A stretch of DNA of 64,000 nt, from the sequence record MK327935.1; one strand, written 5' to 3'. This DNA is from Escherichia phage vB_EcoM_G2494. Under the pieces are notes generated by a model. It saw only the letters and a program-made list of their open reading frames with translations. It did not search any database and had not been told where the DNA came from. The translations under genes and the position numbers were made by a program. Below are positions 23,393-28,474 of this stretch, piece after piece. How positions within the stretch are numbered: the first letter of the stretch is position 1; each line of letters opens with the position of its first letter.

Positions 23393-23584
23393 TTAGATTC
23401 CGGCGATCCTGCATATAGTTCTTGTATTAGCACCAATCAGGATCGCATTAACGACAACCATTCCCCAATCAACCCACTGATTATTATAAATGCTAAACCC
23501 GTTTGCAAGACCAAATACAAGCATTCCGGTACACATACTCAGAGCAATAATCAACATCACGGTAAAACCAAATGCAAATCTCAT
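23393..23584 (-). CDS. small hydrophobic membrane protein
   Basis: ORF track 63 aa; predominantly hydrophobic. Confidence 0.35.
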   Translation of the reverse strand: MRFAFGFTVMLIIALSMCTGMLVFGLANGFSIYNNQWVDWGMVVVNAILIGANTRTICRIAGI

Positions 23585-23585
23585 A

Positions 23586-23852
23586 TTATTTTCCTTTTCT
23601 CTGTTTACGTTTATAAAAGTAATACATTACCTCATCGCGTCCGGTTATCCAACATGCTAGGGCGGTAAACAGGTTTACAATTCCCAACACACCTACGGAT
23701 GCGGCGCTGTCAACAGACATAGGAACAGTAAAGGCCATAGCTAACATAGCAACGCCACAAATGACATTAAGCACCATTATAATAAGACCGAAGAAAACCA
23801 TTGTCAATCCTCCCAAATAAGAAAACCAACAATCACGCCAGTGATAAGACAT
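23586..23852 (-). CDS. small hydrophobic membrane protein
   Basis: ORF track 88 aa. Confidence 0.35.
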   Translation of the reverse strand: MSYHWRDCWFSYLGGLTMVFFGLIIMVLNVICGVAMLAMAFTVPMSVDSAASVGVLGIVNLFTALACWITGRDEVMYYFYKRKQRKGK

Positions 23853-23995
23853 GATGCGCCGCTAATAAGACAACCCGCGCCAAGTGATTCCCACCAGATC
23901 AGAGAAGCGACAATAACACAGAATCCCCATACTACCGCAATCACAACATAGGCAAGGGTCGCCCAAAACATATATTTGTTCATAATAAATCCCAT
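23804..23995 (-). CDS. small hydrophobic membrane protein
   Basis: ORF track 63 aa. Confidence 0.35.
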   Translation of the reverse strand: MGFIMNKYMFWATLAYVVIAVVWGFCVIVASLIWWESLGAGCLISGASCLITGVIVGFLIWED

Positions 23996-24168
23996 TCACC
24001 AAACAAATAAGAAAAAAGCCATATCAACAGAAACGAGGCAATTGATCCGGCAAGCAAAATGATATTAGAGAATCCGCCGTCTATCCAGGCGACAAAACAG
24101 AATACGCCAGTATAGAAGCATAAACCCAGTACAAAGCATACTATAAGCAACCATAGACAAAACGCCAT
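23980..24168 (-). CDS. small hydrophobic membrane protein
   Basis: ORF track 62 aa. Confidence 0.35.
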   Translation of the reverse strand: MAFCLWLLIVCFVLGLCFYTGVFCFVAWIDGGFSNIILLAGSIASFLLIWLFSYLFGEWDLL

Positions 24169-24390
24169 AGAAAGCCCTCCAGTGAGCTAATTTAGTGCGG
24201 GTAGTACATTACCCTACCCGTATTGTTAATCATCGCAGAGCTTCTTCTAGCGCGATCCCAAACCATCCACAAACAACGCCCATACAGACAGCTACAAGAA
24301 GATTCATTCTCTCTTTAGGGATCATTGCAATCATAACAACAACCATACAGAAAGCCATTACCATTGAAGTTAACATTTGTTCAACCATTA

Positions 24391-24729
24391 TCACACCTTT
24401 AAAGTCATAGACGCATAAACATTAATGCCAGGCCAGTTAGGATCGCAATTATACTCAACATCCCACAAATAAAGCGGTTTAGATGTATCAGCCAAGTTTT
24501 TAAAATCTTCTACCCACATTTCAAGGCTATATGATGGATAAACTAGGCTATCATATCCGCCGTAACGTTGGCCTACTGGTCGGTCAGTAAAAACTACCTC
24601 AAGATCCGGTAATTCTTTTTCAAGGATAACCGCCAGCGCATAAATCAGACGGTCTTCCTTGTTACGCTGCCGAAGGACCGTTGTCAGTTGGCTTTTCTGG
24701 TTCACTAGCAAGCACCTCCACATTTTCAC
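24391..24729 (-). CDS. hypothetical protein
   Basis: ORF track 112 aa. Confidence 0.45.
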   Translation of the reverse strand: MKMWRCLLVNQKSQLTTVLRQRNKEDRLIYALAVILEKELPDLEVVFTDRPVGQRYGGYDSLVYPSYSLEMWVEDFKNLADTSKPLYLWDVEYNCDPNWPGINVYASMTLKV

Positions 24730-24982
24730 AGAATGAAATTTTCACAGACACAATTTTACCATAAGTGAAGAATGAATATACATTATCGAGATATTCAACG
24801 TCACCTACAATCACATCAAACTGCGGATCAGCAACCGCCGCAACATATTCTACCAGTTCATCAAGAGAATGCAACTTAATTTCATCAATTCGGCTGTATT
24901 TGGTTGCATCTTTGATTTTAAAACCACGTTCTTTCAGCTTATCAATTAGAATTTCACGCGGAGTTTCAAACAGTTTGCTCAT
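24662..24982 (-). CDS. hypothetical protein
   Basis: ORF track 106 aa; GAGGATTATATTATG start context. Confidence 0.45.
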   Translation of the reverse strand: MSKLFETPREILIDKLKERGFKIKDATKYSRIDEIKLHSLDELVEYVAAVADPQFDVIVGDVEYLDNVYSFFTYGKIVSVKISFCENVEVLASEPEKPTDNGPSAA

Positions 24983-25003
24983 AATATAATCCTCACATTA
25001 AAT

Positions 25004-25204
25004 CTAAAATTTGTTAACGACGAATTGCATAATTAGACTAATCACAAACATTGCAAACCAAGTATAAATGCAACAGATAAAAGCTACATACAATTCAATC
25101 TGGTCAGAGAATACACCGGGTAAAAGCATTAGCAAAATAACAACAGTAAAGACGCTAGCGATACCCGCAACAAAACCAATATCATTTTTACTAATCGTCA
25201 TCAA
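25004..25204 (-). CDS. small hydrophobic membrane protein
   Basis: ORF track 66 aa. Confidence 0.35.
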   Translation of the reverse strand: MMTISKNDIGFVAGIASVFTVVILLMLLPGVFSDQIELYVAFICCIYTWFAMFVISLIMQFVVNKF

Positions 25205-25410
25205 GTCACCGTTTTGTAAAGAAACACAATAAAATCCAAGACAAGAAAGACAGTGTAAATGATCATCGTCAAGACAGTAAACACTGTCAAATTTTCATCG
25301 TTAGTTAATTCATAGTCGCCCATCCATACAATCACAAGATATAGCATTGAAAGAATGGAAGCACCTACGAAGTTAAAAAACATATTCTTGAGCGTCATAT
25401 TAACAACCAT
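25201..25410 (-). CDS. small hydrophobic membrane protein
   Basis: ORF track 69 aa. Confidence 0.35.
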   Translation of the reverse strand: MVVNMTLKNMFFNFVGASILSMLYLVIVWMGDYELTNDENLTVFTVLTMIIYTVFLVLDFIVFLYKTVT

Positions 25411-25582
25411 CGCGGCTTAAGTCAACAGCAATTGCATACAGCATAATGAATATGCTAGCAGATCCGAGAATCAATACACCCTCACATTTTGAAACTCGCT
25501 CATCAAAATGTAACATTATCCATCCGAGGATGTTAAAGGCGCAGACCGCGCCTATGTTCGCTAACCAATTAATCTTTTTCAT
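25400..25582 (-). CDS. small hydrophobic membrane protein
   Basis: ORF track 60 aa. Confidence 0.35.
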   Translation of the reverse strand: MKKINWLANIGAVCAFNILGWIMLHFDERVSKCEGVLILGSASIFIMLYAIAVDLSRDGC

Positions 25583-25590
25583 AATATACC

Positions 25591-26885: not shown

Positions 26886-26931
26886 AATTTGATTCTCCGT
26901 TTAAGAAAGTGTGTTTCGTTTCGATGGGTGT

Positions 26932-26960
26932 ATTATGCTATAGGCCGGATCTGGTGTCAA
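26932..26960 (-). promoter_or_regulatory. sigma70-like early promoter (TTGACA-17-CATAAT)
   Basis: Minus strand TTGACAccagatccggcctatagCATAAT. Confidence 0.55.
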
Positions 26961-26985
26961 CAACTTTTTTAAAAAATTTTAGGCA

Positions 26986-27012
26986 ATAAAAAAGCCACTC
27001 CGAAGAGTGGCT
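26986..27012 (-). terminator. rho-independent terminator
   Basis: Minus RNA agccacuc-uucg-gaguggcu followed by UUUUUUAUU. Confidence 0.55.
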
Positions 27013-27162
27013 TATAGGGAAGGTAGCGAATCTTCCTTGTCTCCAACCTGCTAGCGGCCTAGCAAGTGAATGCTTTAGCGTACCGGATCGCCCACATACG
27101 CTGTAATAAATGCGGCTAGGTGACGTCCAAATCATTCTAACCGCGCTGTCTTTAGTTCACTA

Positions 27163-27381
27163 TTATTTATATCGCTTTCTCTCGCGACGTTTTTGATCTT
27201 CTTCCTTGATAGAGTTAAATGCATCAAAAAGACACATGAAACTAATAATAAACATAACCGTATTTTCTATGATATCCCACGGCTTCGCATCAGTACAGAT
27301 CCCCCAAACGGTAAGAAATGCAAATAGTGCAGAAGAGATCACAAGCATGATACTTGCTAAGATATAAAAAGTCATTTTCAT
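27163..27381 (-). CDS. small hydrophobic membrane protein
   Basis: ORF track 72 aa. Confidence 0.35.
   Translation of the reverse strand: MKMTFYILASIMLVISSALFAFLTVWGICTDAKPWDIIENTVMFIISFMCLFDAFNSIKEEDQKRRERKRYK
27164..27171 (-). promoter_or_regulatory. T4 late-promoter-like box TATAAATA
   Basis: Minus strand TATAAATA overlapping the stop of ORF 27163-27381 and facing a ~150-nt ORF-free interval that ends at terminator 26986-27012. Confidence 0.35.
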
Positions 27382-27572
27382 GGTTTTACCTCAATTCTTC
27401 GATATTCATCACACATCCACGCAGTAAGCAAGAATCCCAACACATAAGCAACAAAATACGTTAATGCTTCTTCTGGTTCGGTGCTATGCGCCATCATCAG
27501 ACCAGCGAGAAAGGTCTTAACAATTACATTTAAAATAATTAGCCACGCAAATAATTTCATCGTTTGCCCCAT
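27378..27572 (-). CDS. small hydrophobic membrane protein
   Basis: ORF track 64 aa. Confidence 0.35.
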   Translation of the reverse strand: MGQTMKLFAWLIILNVIVKTFLAGLMMAHSTEPEEALTYFVAYVLGFLLTAWMCDEYRRIEVKP

Positions 27573-27796
27573 TTCGGTCGAGTCTTTTCAAACTTATACA
27601 TTCCGTAACAATCTCGAATCATCCACGTAACAAGAGCACCAGTCAACACAGACAATACACAGAAGAAGTAAAACGGTCCGGTTGCATTATCAACATGAGC
27701 AAGCCAGGTAAAGAAAACACATGCTAAGAATGTGAAGAACATCATAAAACACAAGAAAGCAAAATATTTTATGCTACTCATAGCGCCACCATACAA
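27557..27796 (-). CDS. small hydrophobic membrane protein
   Basis: ORF track 79 aa. Confidence 0.35.
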   Translation of the reverse strand: MYGGAMSSIKYFAFLCFMMFFTFLACVFFTWLAHVDNATGPFYFFCVLSVLTGALVTWMIRDCYGMYKFEKTRPKWGKR

Positions 27797-27884
27797 CAGA
27801 TCATAAGAAAACCCAACGCAATAAGAATTGCATCAAATTTAGTGAACTCCGGTCCACCTATCAACATCATTCGTTCTATTTCGT

Positions 27885-28127
27885 TCATAGCGTACAAAGC
27901 CATTTAAAAGCACCACATAAAGCGAGCAGAATACTAGGTATAAACGAGATCAAAACAAGGTTGCAAAAATCATCTAAGGTAACACCGGAATAGCTACCTA
28001 CTGTAACAACACCGATCATCAGACACAGAAAGAAAACAAATGCAATCAGAAACAAAGTATTACTAAACAGTTTAGTGATCATTAGACACCCCACGACGAT
28101 CAATTTCAAAAACTTTTTTATCATCAA
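27885..28127 (-). CDS. small hydrophobic membrane protein
   Basis: ORF track 80 aa. Confidence 0.35.
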   Translation of the reverse strand: MMIKKFLKLIVVGCLMITKLFSNTLFLIAFVFFLCLMIGVVTVGSYSGVTLDDFCNLVLISFIPSILLALCGAFKWLCTL

Positions 28128-28275
28128 CGAAGCATGTCACAACTGCCTCGTTGACTTCCGCAAATTGTTGTGTTACCCACTTAAGGTCAGAGCGAAACAA
28201 TGTTCTATTAATAACAAATGTTTTACCGCTCTTATCCTTACCCATAAATTTTGCTTTAACCATATCAAATTCCAT
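28072..28275 (-). CDS. hypothetical small protein
   Basis: ORF track 67 aa. Confidence 0.4.
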   Translation of the reverse strand: MEFDMVKAKFMGKDKSGKTFVINRTLFRSDLKWVTQQFAEVNEAVVTCFVDDKKVFEIDRRGVSNDH

Positions 28276-28474
28276 ATTATCACCTTATTTGCTAATCGCT
28301 AAACCCAATCCGAAGAGAGCACCCGATGCTACAGTATACCCGAAAGTTTCAAAGGCAGTAAAGATATCTAAGCCACCAGCTAACAGAGTTGCAGTAAACA
28401 GAGTACCAGCTACGAACATAAAAGTTTTACCGATGAATTTCATTTTGATTCTCCTTTCGTTTGTTTGTGGGGGT

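What the first reader, a model, noticed from the sequence alone, without database searches (positions are those of the whole stretch)
23393..28445. Dense arrays of very small hydrophobic protein genes
At least eleven consecutive minus-strand ORFs of 60-90 aa (23393-24168, 25004-25582, 27163-28127) are dominated by hydrophobic residues, consistent with one or two transmembrane helices each. By hand translation there are further sub-threshold candidates of about 36-52 aa (roughly 24230-24388, 27779-27889, 28287-28445). Such a concentration of membrane micro-proteins is unusual; candidate roles include holin/antiholin-like lysis control, superinfection exclusion or interference with host membrane defence.
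Basis: partly seen in the sequence, partly recalled or inferred. Interest (0 to 1): 0.6.

Follow-up and report, generated by a model that had tools for sequence, protein, structure and literature searches.

The report
Array of tiny phage membrane proteins
A 5-kb stretch of this RB49-like (Krischvirus) T4-type phage genome carries fourteen real genes for 36-74-residue membrane proteins; they are long-annotated, genus-specific early genes of unknown function, more likely used at the inner membrane against rival phages or host defences than for lysis.

Summary
The window is a Krischvirus (RB49-like) genome. The finding covers RB49 ORF103c-107c, 110c-112c, 118c-122c and 124c.

- **Real genes.** All 14 micro-ORFs are intact in 13 genomes, and those covered by two metagenome contigs are called there too. 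They have SD motifs or ATGA overlaps. pN/pS is 0.27 in frame and 1.06/1.48 out of frame.
- **Architecture.** Thirteen are two-helix hairpins, mostly N-in/C-in with short acidic loops. One is tail-anchored.
- **No relatives.** They are mutually unrelated and match no Pfam, NCBIfam or PADLOC family. They were found only in Krischvirus.
- **Clustering.** 14 of RB49's 21 TM-predicted novel ORFs lie in this run of 22 genes (corrected P about 1e-10).
- **Context.** They sit in sigma70-type early operons of a PeSL-punctuated hyperplastic region, beside acb1 (57B), dmd and an LPD25 gene. RB49 has canonical t and rI but no detectable Imm or Sp homologue.

Best reading: early inner-membrane accessory proteins for exclusion or counter-defence, not the lysis system. 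This is inference. The TM predictions were already published (Nolan 2006, supplement) and one GenBank record calls eleven of them "putative membrane protein". Function is untested. Interest is modest.

The parts
23393..23584 (-). A1 (RB49 ORF103c orthologue), 63 aa, two-TM hairpin; K/R in N-terminus/loop/C-terminus = +1/0/+2
   Evidence: pN/pS 0.19, intact in 13 genomes; TM 5-27, 37-54; SD AAGGA
23586..23801 (-). A2 (ORF104c), 71 aa, two-TM hairpin with a +7 basic C-terminal tail. TM2 and the tail are the conserved part.
   Evidence: pN/pS 0.08; AF2 helices 2-25 and 32-69, pLDDT 71; SD GGAGG
23804..23983 (-). A3 (ORF105c), 59 aa, two-TM hairpin, Gly/Ser-rich TM2
   Evidence: pN/pS 0.22; ATGA overlap with A4
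23980..24168 (-). A4 (ORF106c), 62 aa, two-TM hairpin with no K or R at all
   Evidence: pN/pS 0.50; SD GGAGG
24230..24388 (-). A5 (ORF107c), 52 aa, two-TM hairpin with a basic loop (possibly inverted topology). Two allele classes, about 85% and 99% nucleotide identity.
   Evidence: (pN/pS 0.25)
25004..25201 (-). B1 (ORF110c), 65 aa, two-TM hairpin. JSE-type genomes carry a 64-66-aa allele only 32-34% identical in its place.
   Evidence: (13 clusters in 5.8e9 proteins, all 64-66 aa)
25201..25398 (-). B2 (ORF111c), 65 aa, two-TM hairpin with a very acidic loop. Absent from JSE-type genomes; 1-nt indel in W115 and JK32.
25400..25582 (-). B3 (ORF112c), 60 aa, two-TM hairpin
   Evidence: (pN/pS 0.40)
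27163..27381 (-). C1 (ORF118c), 72 aa, two-TM hairpin, polar TM2 (E, N, D), highly charged C-tail (+7/-4). Last gene of the cluster C operon.
   Evidence: (pN/pS 0.12)
27378..27560 (-). C2 (ORF119c), 60 aa, two-TM hairpin, acidic loop EPEE
   Evidence: pN/pS 0.22; ATGA overlaps on both sides
27557..27781 (-). C3 (ORF120c), 74 aa, two-TM hairpin with a +7 basic C-tail. Its TM segments are almost invariant.
   Evidence: pN/pS 0.09; 3 clusters only
27778..27888 (-). C4 (ORF121c), 36 aa in its conserved form: polar N-terminus plus one C-terminal TM (tail-anchored)
   Evidence: PHROG profile of 36 positions; stop at codon 4 of the 41-aa form in relatives; pN/pS 0.41
27885..28082 (-). C5 (ORF122c), 65 aa, two-TM hairpin. 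Most variable member, with two allele classes; its start overlaps the end of dmd by 11 nt.
   Evidence: (pN/pS 0.54)
28285..28443 (-). C6 (ORF124c), 52 aa, Gly-rich two-TM hairpin. First gene of the cluster C operon.
   Evidence: pN/pS 0.10; SD AAGGAG
28072..28275 (-). dmd (antitoxin against RnlA/LsoA), soluble, embedded in the cluster C operon
   Evidence: Pfam Dmd, E 1.5e-15; T4 Dmd tblastn E 3e-14
28475..28503 (-). Sigma70-type early promoter (TTGACA-17-TAAGAT) plus G/C stem-loop (PeSL-type), driving C6-dmd-C5-C4-C3-C2-C1
   Evidence: published RB49 prediction Pe:60244
26992..27013 (-). Intrinsic terminator closing the cluster C operon
   Evidence: TransTerm prediction between ORF118c and ORF117c
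25960..25988 (-). Sigma70-type early promoter (TTGACA-17-CATAAT) of the long operon ORF113c-B3-B2-B1-109c-108c-A5-A4-A3-A2-A1-(lys)
   Evidence: repeat family D1; Pe:57746; next predicted early promoter downstream is Pe:52389
28995..29465 (-). 57B = Acb1 anti-CBASS phosphodiesterase, flanking the region on the upstream side
   Evidence: Pfam Acb1, E 1.3e-51; PMC9117128
22975..23364 (-). M15 L-Ala-D-Glu peptidase endolysin immediately downstream of A1
   Evidence: Pfam Peptidase_M15_4

Best explanation
Fourteen independent, sequence-unrelated genes encode 36-74-residue proteins: thirteen two-helix hairpins and one tail-anchored helix.

**Proposed mechanism.** They are transcribed by host sigma70 RNA polymerase from early promoters within minutes of infection. 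They insert into the E. coli inner membrane, mostly with both termini in the cytoplasm and a 3-14-residue acidic loop in the periplasm. They then act inside the bilayer or through short cytoplasmic tails.

**Proposed job.** Accessory conflict functions at the membrane:
- Imm-like blocking of DNA entry by superinfecting phages, and/or
- neutralising membrane-acting host defence or abortive-infection effectors.

They are not the lysis clock, which RB49-type phages run with the canonical T holin and RI antiholin.

**Shown:** the genes are real, under purifying selection, hydrophobic and TM-like, genus-restricted, and placed in predicted early operons in a conflict-gene neighbourhood.

**Inferred:** membrane insertion, topology, timing of expression and the functional class.
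For: **Gene reality.**
- Intact in all 13 compared genomes. The one real exception is a 1-nt indel in B2 in two genomes.
- Polymorphic sites by codon position are 97/59/184. pN/pS is 0.27 in frame against 1.06 and 1.48 in shifted frames.
- Against a more divergent metagenome contig, pooled pN/pS is 0.31 at 72-90% aa identity.
- SD motifs and 4-nt ATGA overlaps are present.

**Membrane character.**
- KD peaks, published TM predictions and AF2 helices for A2.
- 88 of 95 variable TM positions stay apolar or small.
- 10 of 13 hairpins have K/R only at the termini.

**Early expression.**
- Five 10-11/12 sigma70 promoter matches on the coding strand, with repeated promoter/leader cassettes.
- They coincide with published RB49 early-promoter and terminator predictions and with PeSL cassettes.

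**Conflict context.**
- dmd lies inside the cluster C operon. acb1/57B, an LPD25 gene and DUF7421 are adjacent.
- T4 carries ipI and other accessory genes at the syntenic place.

**Not the main lysis system.** t, rI, rIIA and rIIB are present elsewhere in RB49.

**A vacancy for exclusion functions.** No Imm or Sp homologue was found by tblastn in about 88% of the genome, with dmd and 61.1 as positive controls.

**Arms-race flavour.**
- Amino-acid change is faster than in soluble neighbours (pN 0.031 against 0.009).
- Deeply divergent alleles occur (B1 32-34% aa; A5, C5) in genomes that are otherwise about 97% identical.

**Possible toxicity.** Nolan et al. report that novel-ORF regions were under-represented in plasmid libraries.
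Against: - There is no functional, transcriptomic or proteomic datum for any of the 14.
- No homology to Imm, Sp or any characterised family was found. The argument rests on architecture, timing and neighbours.
- Guilt by association is weak here. The whole hyperplastic region, soluble genes included, is genus-specific and uncharacterised.
- Allelic dimorphism also affects a soluble gene, ORF116c.
- All pN/pS values are below 1, so positive selection is not demonstrated.
- Fourteen different proteins need not share one function.
- Early timing is predicted from promoters only.
Confidence: 0.45

Rival explanations
1. Lysis control. Some of the hairpins act as auxiliary holins, pinholins, antiholins or modulators of lysis inhibition for the T5-type M15 endolysin that replaced T4 lysozyme. 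The candidates are A1-A5, directly upstream of the endolysin, and A2, C1 and C3, which have basic C-tails.
For: - A1 ends 28 nt before the endolysin start, and cluster A lies in the same transcription unit.
- A2 (71 aa), C1 (72 aa) and C3 (74 aa) have the class II holin layout: two TMs plus a strongly basic C-terminus.
- A2 and C3 give sub-threshold hits to holin superfamily III models (E 0.08-0.96).
Against: - RB49 has the canonical holin t (218 aa, next to the tail-fibre genes) and antiholin rI.
- All holin hits are far below the gathering scores (10-13.5 bits against 27-28) and sit among equally weak hits to unrelated TM families.
- The genes lie behind sigma70 early promoters.
- The endolysin has its own invariant element: a late-promoter-like TCTAAATA box plus a hairpin that sequesters its SD. 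This suggests it is translated separately and late.
- Clusters B and C are 1.6-5 kb away from the endolysin.
Confidence: 0.12
2. Host take-over by membrane perturbation. The hairpins oligomerise like class II viroporins or type I toxins and partially depolarise or permeabilise the inner membrane. Alternatively they inhibit specific host transporters or respiratory, division or quality-control proteins, reprogramming host physiology rather than fighting competitors.
For: - Size and two-TM hairpin layout.
- Polar or charged residues inside TM helices: C1 TM2 has E, N, D; A1 TM2 has D, N; B2 has D.
- Gly-rich small-xxx-small stretches in A3, A5 and C6.
- Early promoters.
- Cloning bias against novel-ORF regions.
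Against: - No homology to any toxin or viroporin family. The only hint is a below-threshold hit of the JSE-type allele to the paramyxovirus SH protein family (E 0.011, 15.8 bits against a cutoff of 27).
- Fourteen unrelated depolarisers would be redundant.
- Restriction to one genus and allelic turnover fit a variable target better than a conserved host one.
Confidence: 0.15
3. Marginal or filler genes. These are hydrophobic ORFs that arose easily from T-rich sequence in a recombination-prone hyperplastic region. They are translated and tolerated but contribute little. The array reflects how such ORFs are born and shuffled by PeSL cassettes, not a shared function.
For: - No homologues anywhere outside the genus.
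- No paralogy among them.
- Higher pN/pS than the soluble neighbours; B1 reaches 0.78-0.83.
- B2 is lost or frameshifted in some genomes.
- PeSL repeats flank the blocks.
Against: - All 14 families persist in essentially every one of 58 Krischvirus records.
- Lengths are preserved and pN/pS is 0.08-0.54 for 13 of 14.
- Some are as constrained as enzymes: A2 0.08, C3 0.09, C6 0.10.
- Hydrophobicity is specifically maintained.
- GC content does not differ from the rest of the genome.
Confidence: 0.08
4. Membrane anchors for the phage's own processes, such as tethering replication or transcription complexes or prohead assembly sites to the inner membrane.
For: - Cytoplasmic basic tails on A2, C1 and C3 could bind nucleic acid or phage proteins.
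- They are core to the genus.
Against: - Such functions in T4-type phages are carried by conserved core genes (for example gp40 and gp20). These ORFs are absent from all other T4-type genera.
- They sit among accessory conflict genes.
Confidence: 0.05

Closest known systems
T4 Imm (superinfection immunity protein, 83 aa, Pfam Imm_superinfect)
   Same: - A small early-expressed accessory protein of a T4-type phage, with two hydrophobic helices and a polar C-tail.
- It acts in the inner membrane. The T4 record describes it as changing the membrane so that superinfecting DNA stays in the periplasm. Imm and Spackle together give superinfection exclusion (PMC7677548).
   Different: - No sequence similarity: tblastn best E is 4.3 and phmmer E is at least 0.15 even against a 18-sequence database. 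There is no Pfam hit.
- The locus is different.
- There are fourteen unrelated proteins here instead of one.
Class II holins / pinholins (two-TM, about 70 aa, e.g. phage 21 S21; from my own knowledge)
   Same: - A2, C1 and C3 are 71-74 aa with two TM helices and a highly basic C-terminus.
- Cluster A abuts the endolysin.
   Different: - No family membership.
- Early rather than late promoters.
- The phage already has the T4-type holin T and antiholin RI.
- Eleven of the fourteen lack the charged tail.
Small membrane ORFs of T4's own hyperplastic region at the syntenic place (trna.4, e.2, e.3, e.4)
   Same: - Same position between 57B and the endolysin, same strand, small size and TM-like segments.
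- Function is also unknown.
   Different: - Unrelated in sequence.
- T4 has 4 among 24 genes, mostly 100-130 aa. This region has 14 among 22 genes, at 36-74 aa.
PeSL-flanked ORFan cassettes of RB49/phi1/JSE hyperplastic regions (Arbiol et al. 2010, PMC2839356)
   Same: - Same phages and the same kind of region.
- Repeated sigma70 promoter and stem-loop motifs bracket the blocks.
- JSE-type genomes show a cassette-like replacement in cluster B.
   Different: - PeSL describes how such genes are moved and expressed, not what they do.
- That paper does not mention their membrane nature.
Class II viroporins of eukaryotic viruses (two-TM hairpins of about 60-100 aa, e.g. HCV p7; from my own knowledge)
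   Same: - Size and helical-hairpin architecture.
- Viral origin.
- Polar residues within the TM helices of some members.
   Different: - No homology.
- No evidence of oligomerisation or channel activity.
- The host membrane system is different.

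Membership tests
Holins (any Pfam holin family, including T4 Phage_holin_T and superfamily III) | Significant match to a holin family model | tested here: not met
   Pfam scan of all 14 plus the JSE-type allele. The best holin hits are A2 (12.4 and 10 bits) and C3 (13.5 bits) against cut-offs of 27-28.4.
Holins | At least one TM domain plus a charged, usually basic, cytoplasmic C-terminus | tested here: inconclusive
   Met by A2 (+7), C1 (+7/-4) and C3 (+7). Not met by the other eleven.
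Holins | Late expression as the phage's lysis-timing gene, with no other holin present | tested here: not met
   The operons have sigma70 early promoters. RB49 encodes t and rI elsewhere. Actual timing was not measured.
Holins | Lethal, energy-poison-triggerable hole formation that releases endolysin | not testable with these tools
   Needs expression and lysis assays.
T4 Imm superinfection immunity family | Sequence homology to Imm (Pfam Imm_superinfect) | tested here: not met
   No Pfam hit at E up to 1. T4 Imm by tblastn and phmmer gives no hit.
T4 Imm superinfection immunity family | Small early inner-membrane protein with two hydrophobic helices | tested here: met
   Architecture. Early promoters (predicted, not measured).
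T4 Imm superinfection immunity family | Blocks DNA entry of superinfecting phage | not testable with these tools
   Needs superinfection and exclusion assays.
T4 Spackle (Sp) | Cleaved signal peptide plus a soluble periplasmic domain that binds gp5 lysozyme | tested here: not met
   No similarity. Outside the TM helices only 3-14-residue loops remain, so there is no periplasmic domain.
PeSL-associated ORFans of T4-type hyperplastic regions | Located in a hyperplastic region between conserved core blocks, with no database homologues outside close relatives | tested here: met
   The region lies between 1/57A/57B and lys/vs.8/vs.6. The genes are restricted to Krischvirus.
PeSL-associated ORFans of T4-type hyperplastic regions | [quoted passage not shown] | tested here: met
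   Repeat families D1 and D2, promoters and terminators, definition in PMC2839356. This holds at block level, not for each ORF.
Known anti-phage defence or exclusion proteins (PADLOC-DB) | Match to any defence-system protein model | tested here: not met
   No hit at E up to 0.1 for any of the 14 or the JSE-type allele.
One paralogous family (tandem duplication array) | Detectable similarity among the members | tested here: not met
   All-against-all blastp gives E of 0.19 or more, except B1 against the JSE-type allele. hhalign probabilities are all below 10%. Each has its own PHROG.

The most novel reading that the evidence does not exclude
The array is a multi-target exclusion and counter-defence battery. 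Each unrelated hairpin has been selected to dock, helix to helix, onto a different inner-membrane protein: DNA-entry portals used by rival phages, or membrane-embedded abortive-infection effectors such as the two-TM effectors of CBASS or retron-type systems. On this reading, Krischvirus replaces the single Imm/Sp pair of T-even phages with a combinatorial set of about 14 TM 'plugs', refreshed by PeSL-mediated allele swapping. A corollary is that hyperplastic regions act as nurseries where T-rich sequence gives rise de novo to such TM binders.
Probability: 0.15. Interest if true: 0.7.

Novelty: already known. Interest (0 to 1): 0.33.

Why it matters
If these proteins act as proposed, they would be a compact natural library of minimal two-helix peptides. 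Each would switch off a different bacterial inner-membrane function or block entry of a competing phage. That would be useful for understanding phage-phage competition, for predicting behaviour in phage-therapy cocktails (Krischvirus phages are common therapy candidates), and as leads for membrane-targeted inhibitors.

As it stands, the result mainly documents one point. About 5% of the genes of a well-studied phage genus (14 of about 272), all core to that genus and under purifying selection, form an unusually dense and completely uncharacterised block of membrane micro-proteins. Earlier work recorded this block only in a supplementary table.

Tried and rejected
1. **Concatenated query, large protein database.** I concatenated all 14 proteins into one query for the search for homologous proteins. 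8000 word-sharing candidates swamped the search and nothing scored, so the search was wasted. The same trick worked for tblastn.
2. **Tandem paralogy.** Rejected by blastp, hhalign and PHROGs.
3. **Homology to T4 small membrane or exclusion proteins** (Imm, Sp, 61.4, 61.2, trna.4, e.2-e.4, vs.5). None found.
4. **Curated families.** Pfam, NCBIfam and PADLOC give only sub-threshold hits to assorted TM families, which I treat as composition noise.
5. **Outgroup with the same region.** Neither the TM genes nor four soluble neighbours (ORF125c, 113c, 109c, 108c) exist outside the 58 Krischvirus records. Deep comparative analysis is therefore impossible.
6. **A2 representative search.** It gave one 285-aa hit (P0018, E 1.5e-5). 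This is a non-membrane repeat protein and I reject it as spurious.
7. **Artefact of T-rich antisense frames.** Rejected because the selection signature is frame-specific.
8. **Literature.** Searches for any functional study of these ORFs or of Krischvirus membrane proteins found none.
9. **Exact late promoter near the endolysin.** No exact TATAAATA was found there. Nolan's supplementary files, which include predicted late promoters, list no RB49 feature at the expected coordinates.

Full report
**Identity of the window.**
- Megablast of 22900-28600 finds 60 phage records. 51 cover at least 80% of the query and 55 match at 95-99% identity. All belong to the genus Krischvirus (RB49, phi1, JSE, GEC-3S, W115 and others; Straboviridae).
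- The finding corresponds to RB49 ORF103c-107c, ORF110c-112c, ORF118c-122c and ORF124c. I call these A1-A5, B1-B3, C1-C5 and C6.
- All are 'hypothetical protein' in RB49. The W115 record annotates eleven 'putative membrane protein' genes in the stretch.
- The region lies between gene 1/57A/57B and the M15 endolysin/vs.8/vs.6. This is the place where T4 carries ipI, the tRNA cluster, e.8-e.2 and nudE.

**Check of the observation.**
- With conserved starts the 14 genes encode 36-74 aa. C4 is 36 aa, because the 41-aa reading has a stop at codon 4 in most relatives and its PHROG profile has 36 positions.
- All 14 have Kyte-Doolittle 19-residue maxima of 1.64-3.02. None of the eight interleaved soluble ORFs reaches 1.6.
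- Nolan et al. 2006 (PMC1524935, Additional file 2) list transmembrane-motif predictions for the RB49 orthologues: two TM helices for 13 of them and one for ORF121c. One row is evidently mislabelled, since '106c' is listed twice.
- In that table 14 of the 21 TM-predicted novel ORFs of RB49 fall in the run ORF103c-124c (22 genes of 272). Hypergeometric P is 3e-13, or about 8e-11 after correcting for all windows.
- The other four genomes in that table (RB69, RB43, 44RR, Aeh1) show only short runs. T4's syntenic region has 4 TM ORFs among 24 genes by my criterion.
- In six-frame space, hydrophobic small ORFs occur about 25 times in the other 59 kb. There are 13 in these 5 kb, and there they tile one strand without overlap.

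**Are they genes?**
- I compared the window with 12 Krischvirus records and two metagenome contigs.
- All 14 ORFs are intact in the 13 genomes, with three qualifications. B2 has a 1-nt indel in W115 and JK32. C3 ends one codon early in SFHK24. JSE-type genomes carry a different cluster B.
- Pooled polymorphic sites by codon position are 97/59/184. pN/pS is 0.27 in the annotated frames and 1.06 and 1.48 in the two shifted frames. The soluble neighbours give 0.13.
- Against the more divergent contig L016 (72-90% aa identity), A1-A5 and B1-B3 keep their lengths within one residue. Pooled pN/pS is 0.31, against 0.19 for the soluble genes.
- 13 of 14 starts have an SD-like motif at -5 to -16.
- Five junctions in clusters A and C are 4-nt ATGA overlaps. 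The other junctions within the three clusters are 1-2-nt gaps or short overlaps, apart from a 61-nt gap between A5 and A4.
- 88 of 95 variable positions inside TM segments stay apolar or small.
- These are translated, selected genes. They change about three times faster at the amino-acid level than their soluble neighbours (pN 0.031 against 0.009).

**Anatomy.**
- Thirteen proteins are helical hairpins with 3-14-residue connecting loops. C4 has a polar 19-22-residue N-terminus and a C-terminal TM.
- Ten hairpins have K/R only in the termini and acidic or uncharged loops. By the positive-inside rule this predicts N-in/C-in with a tiny periplasmic loop.
- A5 has a basic loop, B3 is ambiguous, and A4 has no K or R at all.
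- A2, C1 and C3 carry 13-19-residue basic C-tails (+7 each).
- A single-sequence AlphaFold2 model of A2 gives helices 2-25 and 32-69 at mean pLDDT 71.
- Some TM helices contain D, E or N (C1, A1, B2) or Gly/Ser-rich stretches (A3, A5, C6).

**Relationships.**
- Each protein hits only its own small PHROG of unknown function.
- All-against-all blastp and hhalign detect no paralogy.
- The one exception is the 64-66-aa ORF that replaces B1+B2 in JSE, SFHK24, Makalu and phiS. It is a 32-34% identical allele of B1.
- Nothing reaches threshold in Pfam, NCBIfam or PADLOC.
- tblastn of all 14 against 50,697 phage records finds only 58 Krischvirus records.
- A B1 profile finds 13 clusters among 5.8 billion proteins, all 64-66 aa.
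- C3 finds 3 clusters.
- A2 finds two true relatives among 1.84 billion representatives.
- Four soluble neighbours tested (ORF125c, 113c, 109c, 108c) are just as restricted. Genus restriction is therefore a property of the whole hyperplastic region.

**Expression context.**
- On the coding strand there are sigma70-type promoters matching 10-11 of 12 positions at 28950, 28503, 26960, 26691 and 25988. Terminators lie at 28988-28967 and 27013-26992.
- Promoter and leader segments are repeated (families D1 and D2).
- These positions coincide with the early promoters and TransTerm terminators published for RB49: Pe:60694, 60244, 58699, 58430 and 57746, and terminators 60699-60717 and 58720-58737.
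- They also fit the PeSL cassettes described by Arbiol et al. 2010 (PMC2839356).
- Inferred operons:
  - P28503 drives C6-dmd-C5-C4-C3-C2-C1 up to the terminator.
  - P25988 drives ORF113c-B3-B2-B1-109c-108c-A5-A4-A3-A2-A1 and runs on into lys.
- Neighbours include Acb1 (57B, E 1.3e-51), Dmd (1.5e-15), an LPD25 domain protein (2.5e-14) and DUF7421.
- Acb1 is the anti-CBASS nuclease of T4 (PMC9117128). From my own knowledge, Dmd is the antitoxin against RnlA/LsoA.

**Lysis or not?**
- RB49 carries holin t, antiholin rI, and rIIA/rIIB elsewhere.
- The 28 nt between A1 and lys contain TCTAAATA, one mismatch from the T4 late box and overlapping the A1 stop. They also contain a 6-bp hairpin that pairs with the lys SD.
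- This 35-nt element is invariant in all relatives, including L016, where the flanking coding sequence differs.
- This resembles the T4 e arrangement as I recall it, in which early read-through transcripts cannot translate lysozyme. It argues that cluster A and lys are not co-expressed. This step is inference.
- No Imm or Sp homologue is detectable in the window plus RB49 1-50 kb and 114-164 kb. T4 Dmd and gp61.1 are found there as positive controls.

**Interpretation.**
- Shown: real, selected, genus-core genes for TM hairpins, in predicted early operons of a conflict-gene neighbourhood.
- Inferred: early insertion into the inner membrane and a role in exclusion or counter-defence (confidence 0.45).
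- Rivals: host-physiology perturbation or viroporin-like action (0.15), lysis control (0.12), marginal filler or de novo ORFs (0.08), anchors for phage processes (0.05).

**Novelty.**
- The ORFs have been in GenBank since the RB49 genome was deposited. Their TM predictions were published in 2006 (supplement only). One record already calls them membrane proteins.
- No paper I could find discusses the array or any function.
- The feature itself is therefore already known. Its density and uniform architecture are noteworthy, but its biology is open. Interest 0.33.

Noticed in passing
window 27020-27162 (minus strand), between the C1 stop and terminator 27013-26992: A 3'-UTR element of about 140 nt, GC-richer than its surroundings. 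With the terminator it folds into 4-5 hairpins (178 nt, MFE -60.3, z = -3.4 against shuffles). It is almost invariant in relatives (93-100% over the 277-nt gap); the few changes fall in a loop and in unpaired positions, and there is no covariation to test. It has no Rfam family and is not a tRNA. T4 has tRNAs and the stable RNAs rnaC/rnaD at the syntenic place. Possibly a small stable RNA or a processing/stability element.
   Followed up: partly
window 23365-23397 (minus strand), upstream of the endolysin: TCTAAATA (one mismatch from the T4 late-promoter box, overlapping the A1 stop codon) is followed by a 6-bp hairpin (23386-23368) that sequesters the endolysin SD. The whole element is 100% conserved in 12 relatives, including a divergent contig. 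It looks like the T4 e-gene device that limits lysozyme translation to late transcripts. The published promoter supplement lists nothing for RB49 at the expected coordinates.
   Followed up: partly
window 28995-29465 (minus strand): Gene 57B is a clear Acb1 anti-CBASS 2H-phosphodiesterase (Pfam E 1.3e-51; HSTILYS and HITLSY motifs are visible). Older records annotate it only as 'gp57B conserved hypothetical' or 'RNA ligase'.
   Followed up: yes
window 26700-26963 (minus strand): ORF117c (61 aa, DUF7421) with its leader and promoter: The gene together with its upstream leader and promoter matches T1-like siphoviruses (Shigella SH6, ADB-2, JMPW1/2 and others) at 72-78% DNA identity. This is the only part of the region, besides the endolysin, that is shared outside Krischvirus. 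It looks like a horizontally exchanged promoter-plus-gene cassette.
   Followed up: partly
window 25004-25398; L006 3848-4042, L004 3831-4031, L010 3346-3546, L012 3346-3540: Cluster B is dimorphic. RB49-type genomes have B1+B2. JSE-type genomes have a single 64-66-aa hairpin that is 32-34% identical to B1, and no B2, although the genomes are otherwise about 97% identical.
   Followed up: yes
L001 (W115) and L005 (JK32), B2 orthologue: B2 carries a 1-nt indel in these two genomes. W115 annotates a truncated 147-nt ORF. This is either real inactivation or a sequencing error in a homopolymer.
   Followed up: no
window 25914-25999, 26630-26662, 26911-26971, 28440-28472, 28881-28961: Repeated early promoter/leader cassettes (61-nt family at 69-100% identity, 33-nt leader/SD family at 64-100%). 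These correspond to the PeSL motifs of Arbiol et al. 2010.
   Followed up: partly
window 24198-24220 (minus strand), in the 61-nt gap between A5 and A4: An isolated G/C-stemmed hairpin (CGGGTAG-9 nt-CTACCCG) with no T-run and no proper promoter spacing. Possibly a relic PeSL stem-loop or an RNA processing site.
   Followed up: no
window 26412-26633 (ORF116c) and 26208-26402 (ORF115c): These soluble small genes also exist as two divergent allele classes among Krischvirus genomes. ORF116c alleles are 78-83% identical with indels against 100% within a class. ORF115c has alternative 3' ends.
   Followed up: no
window about 33000-34000: GC skew changes sign here (negative up to about 33 kb, positive after 34 kb). 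This fits a switch from leftward early genes to rightward late genes.
   Followed up: no
window 28510-28884 (ORF125c, 124 aa): Weak, sub-threshold similarity to the T4 Gp30.7 family (Pfam E 0.004, 17.3 bits against a cutoff of 27).
   Followed up: no
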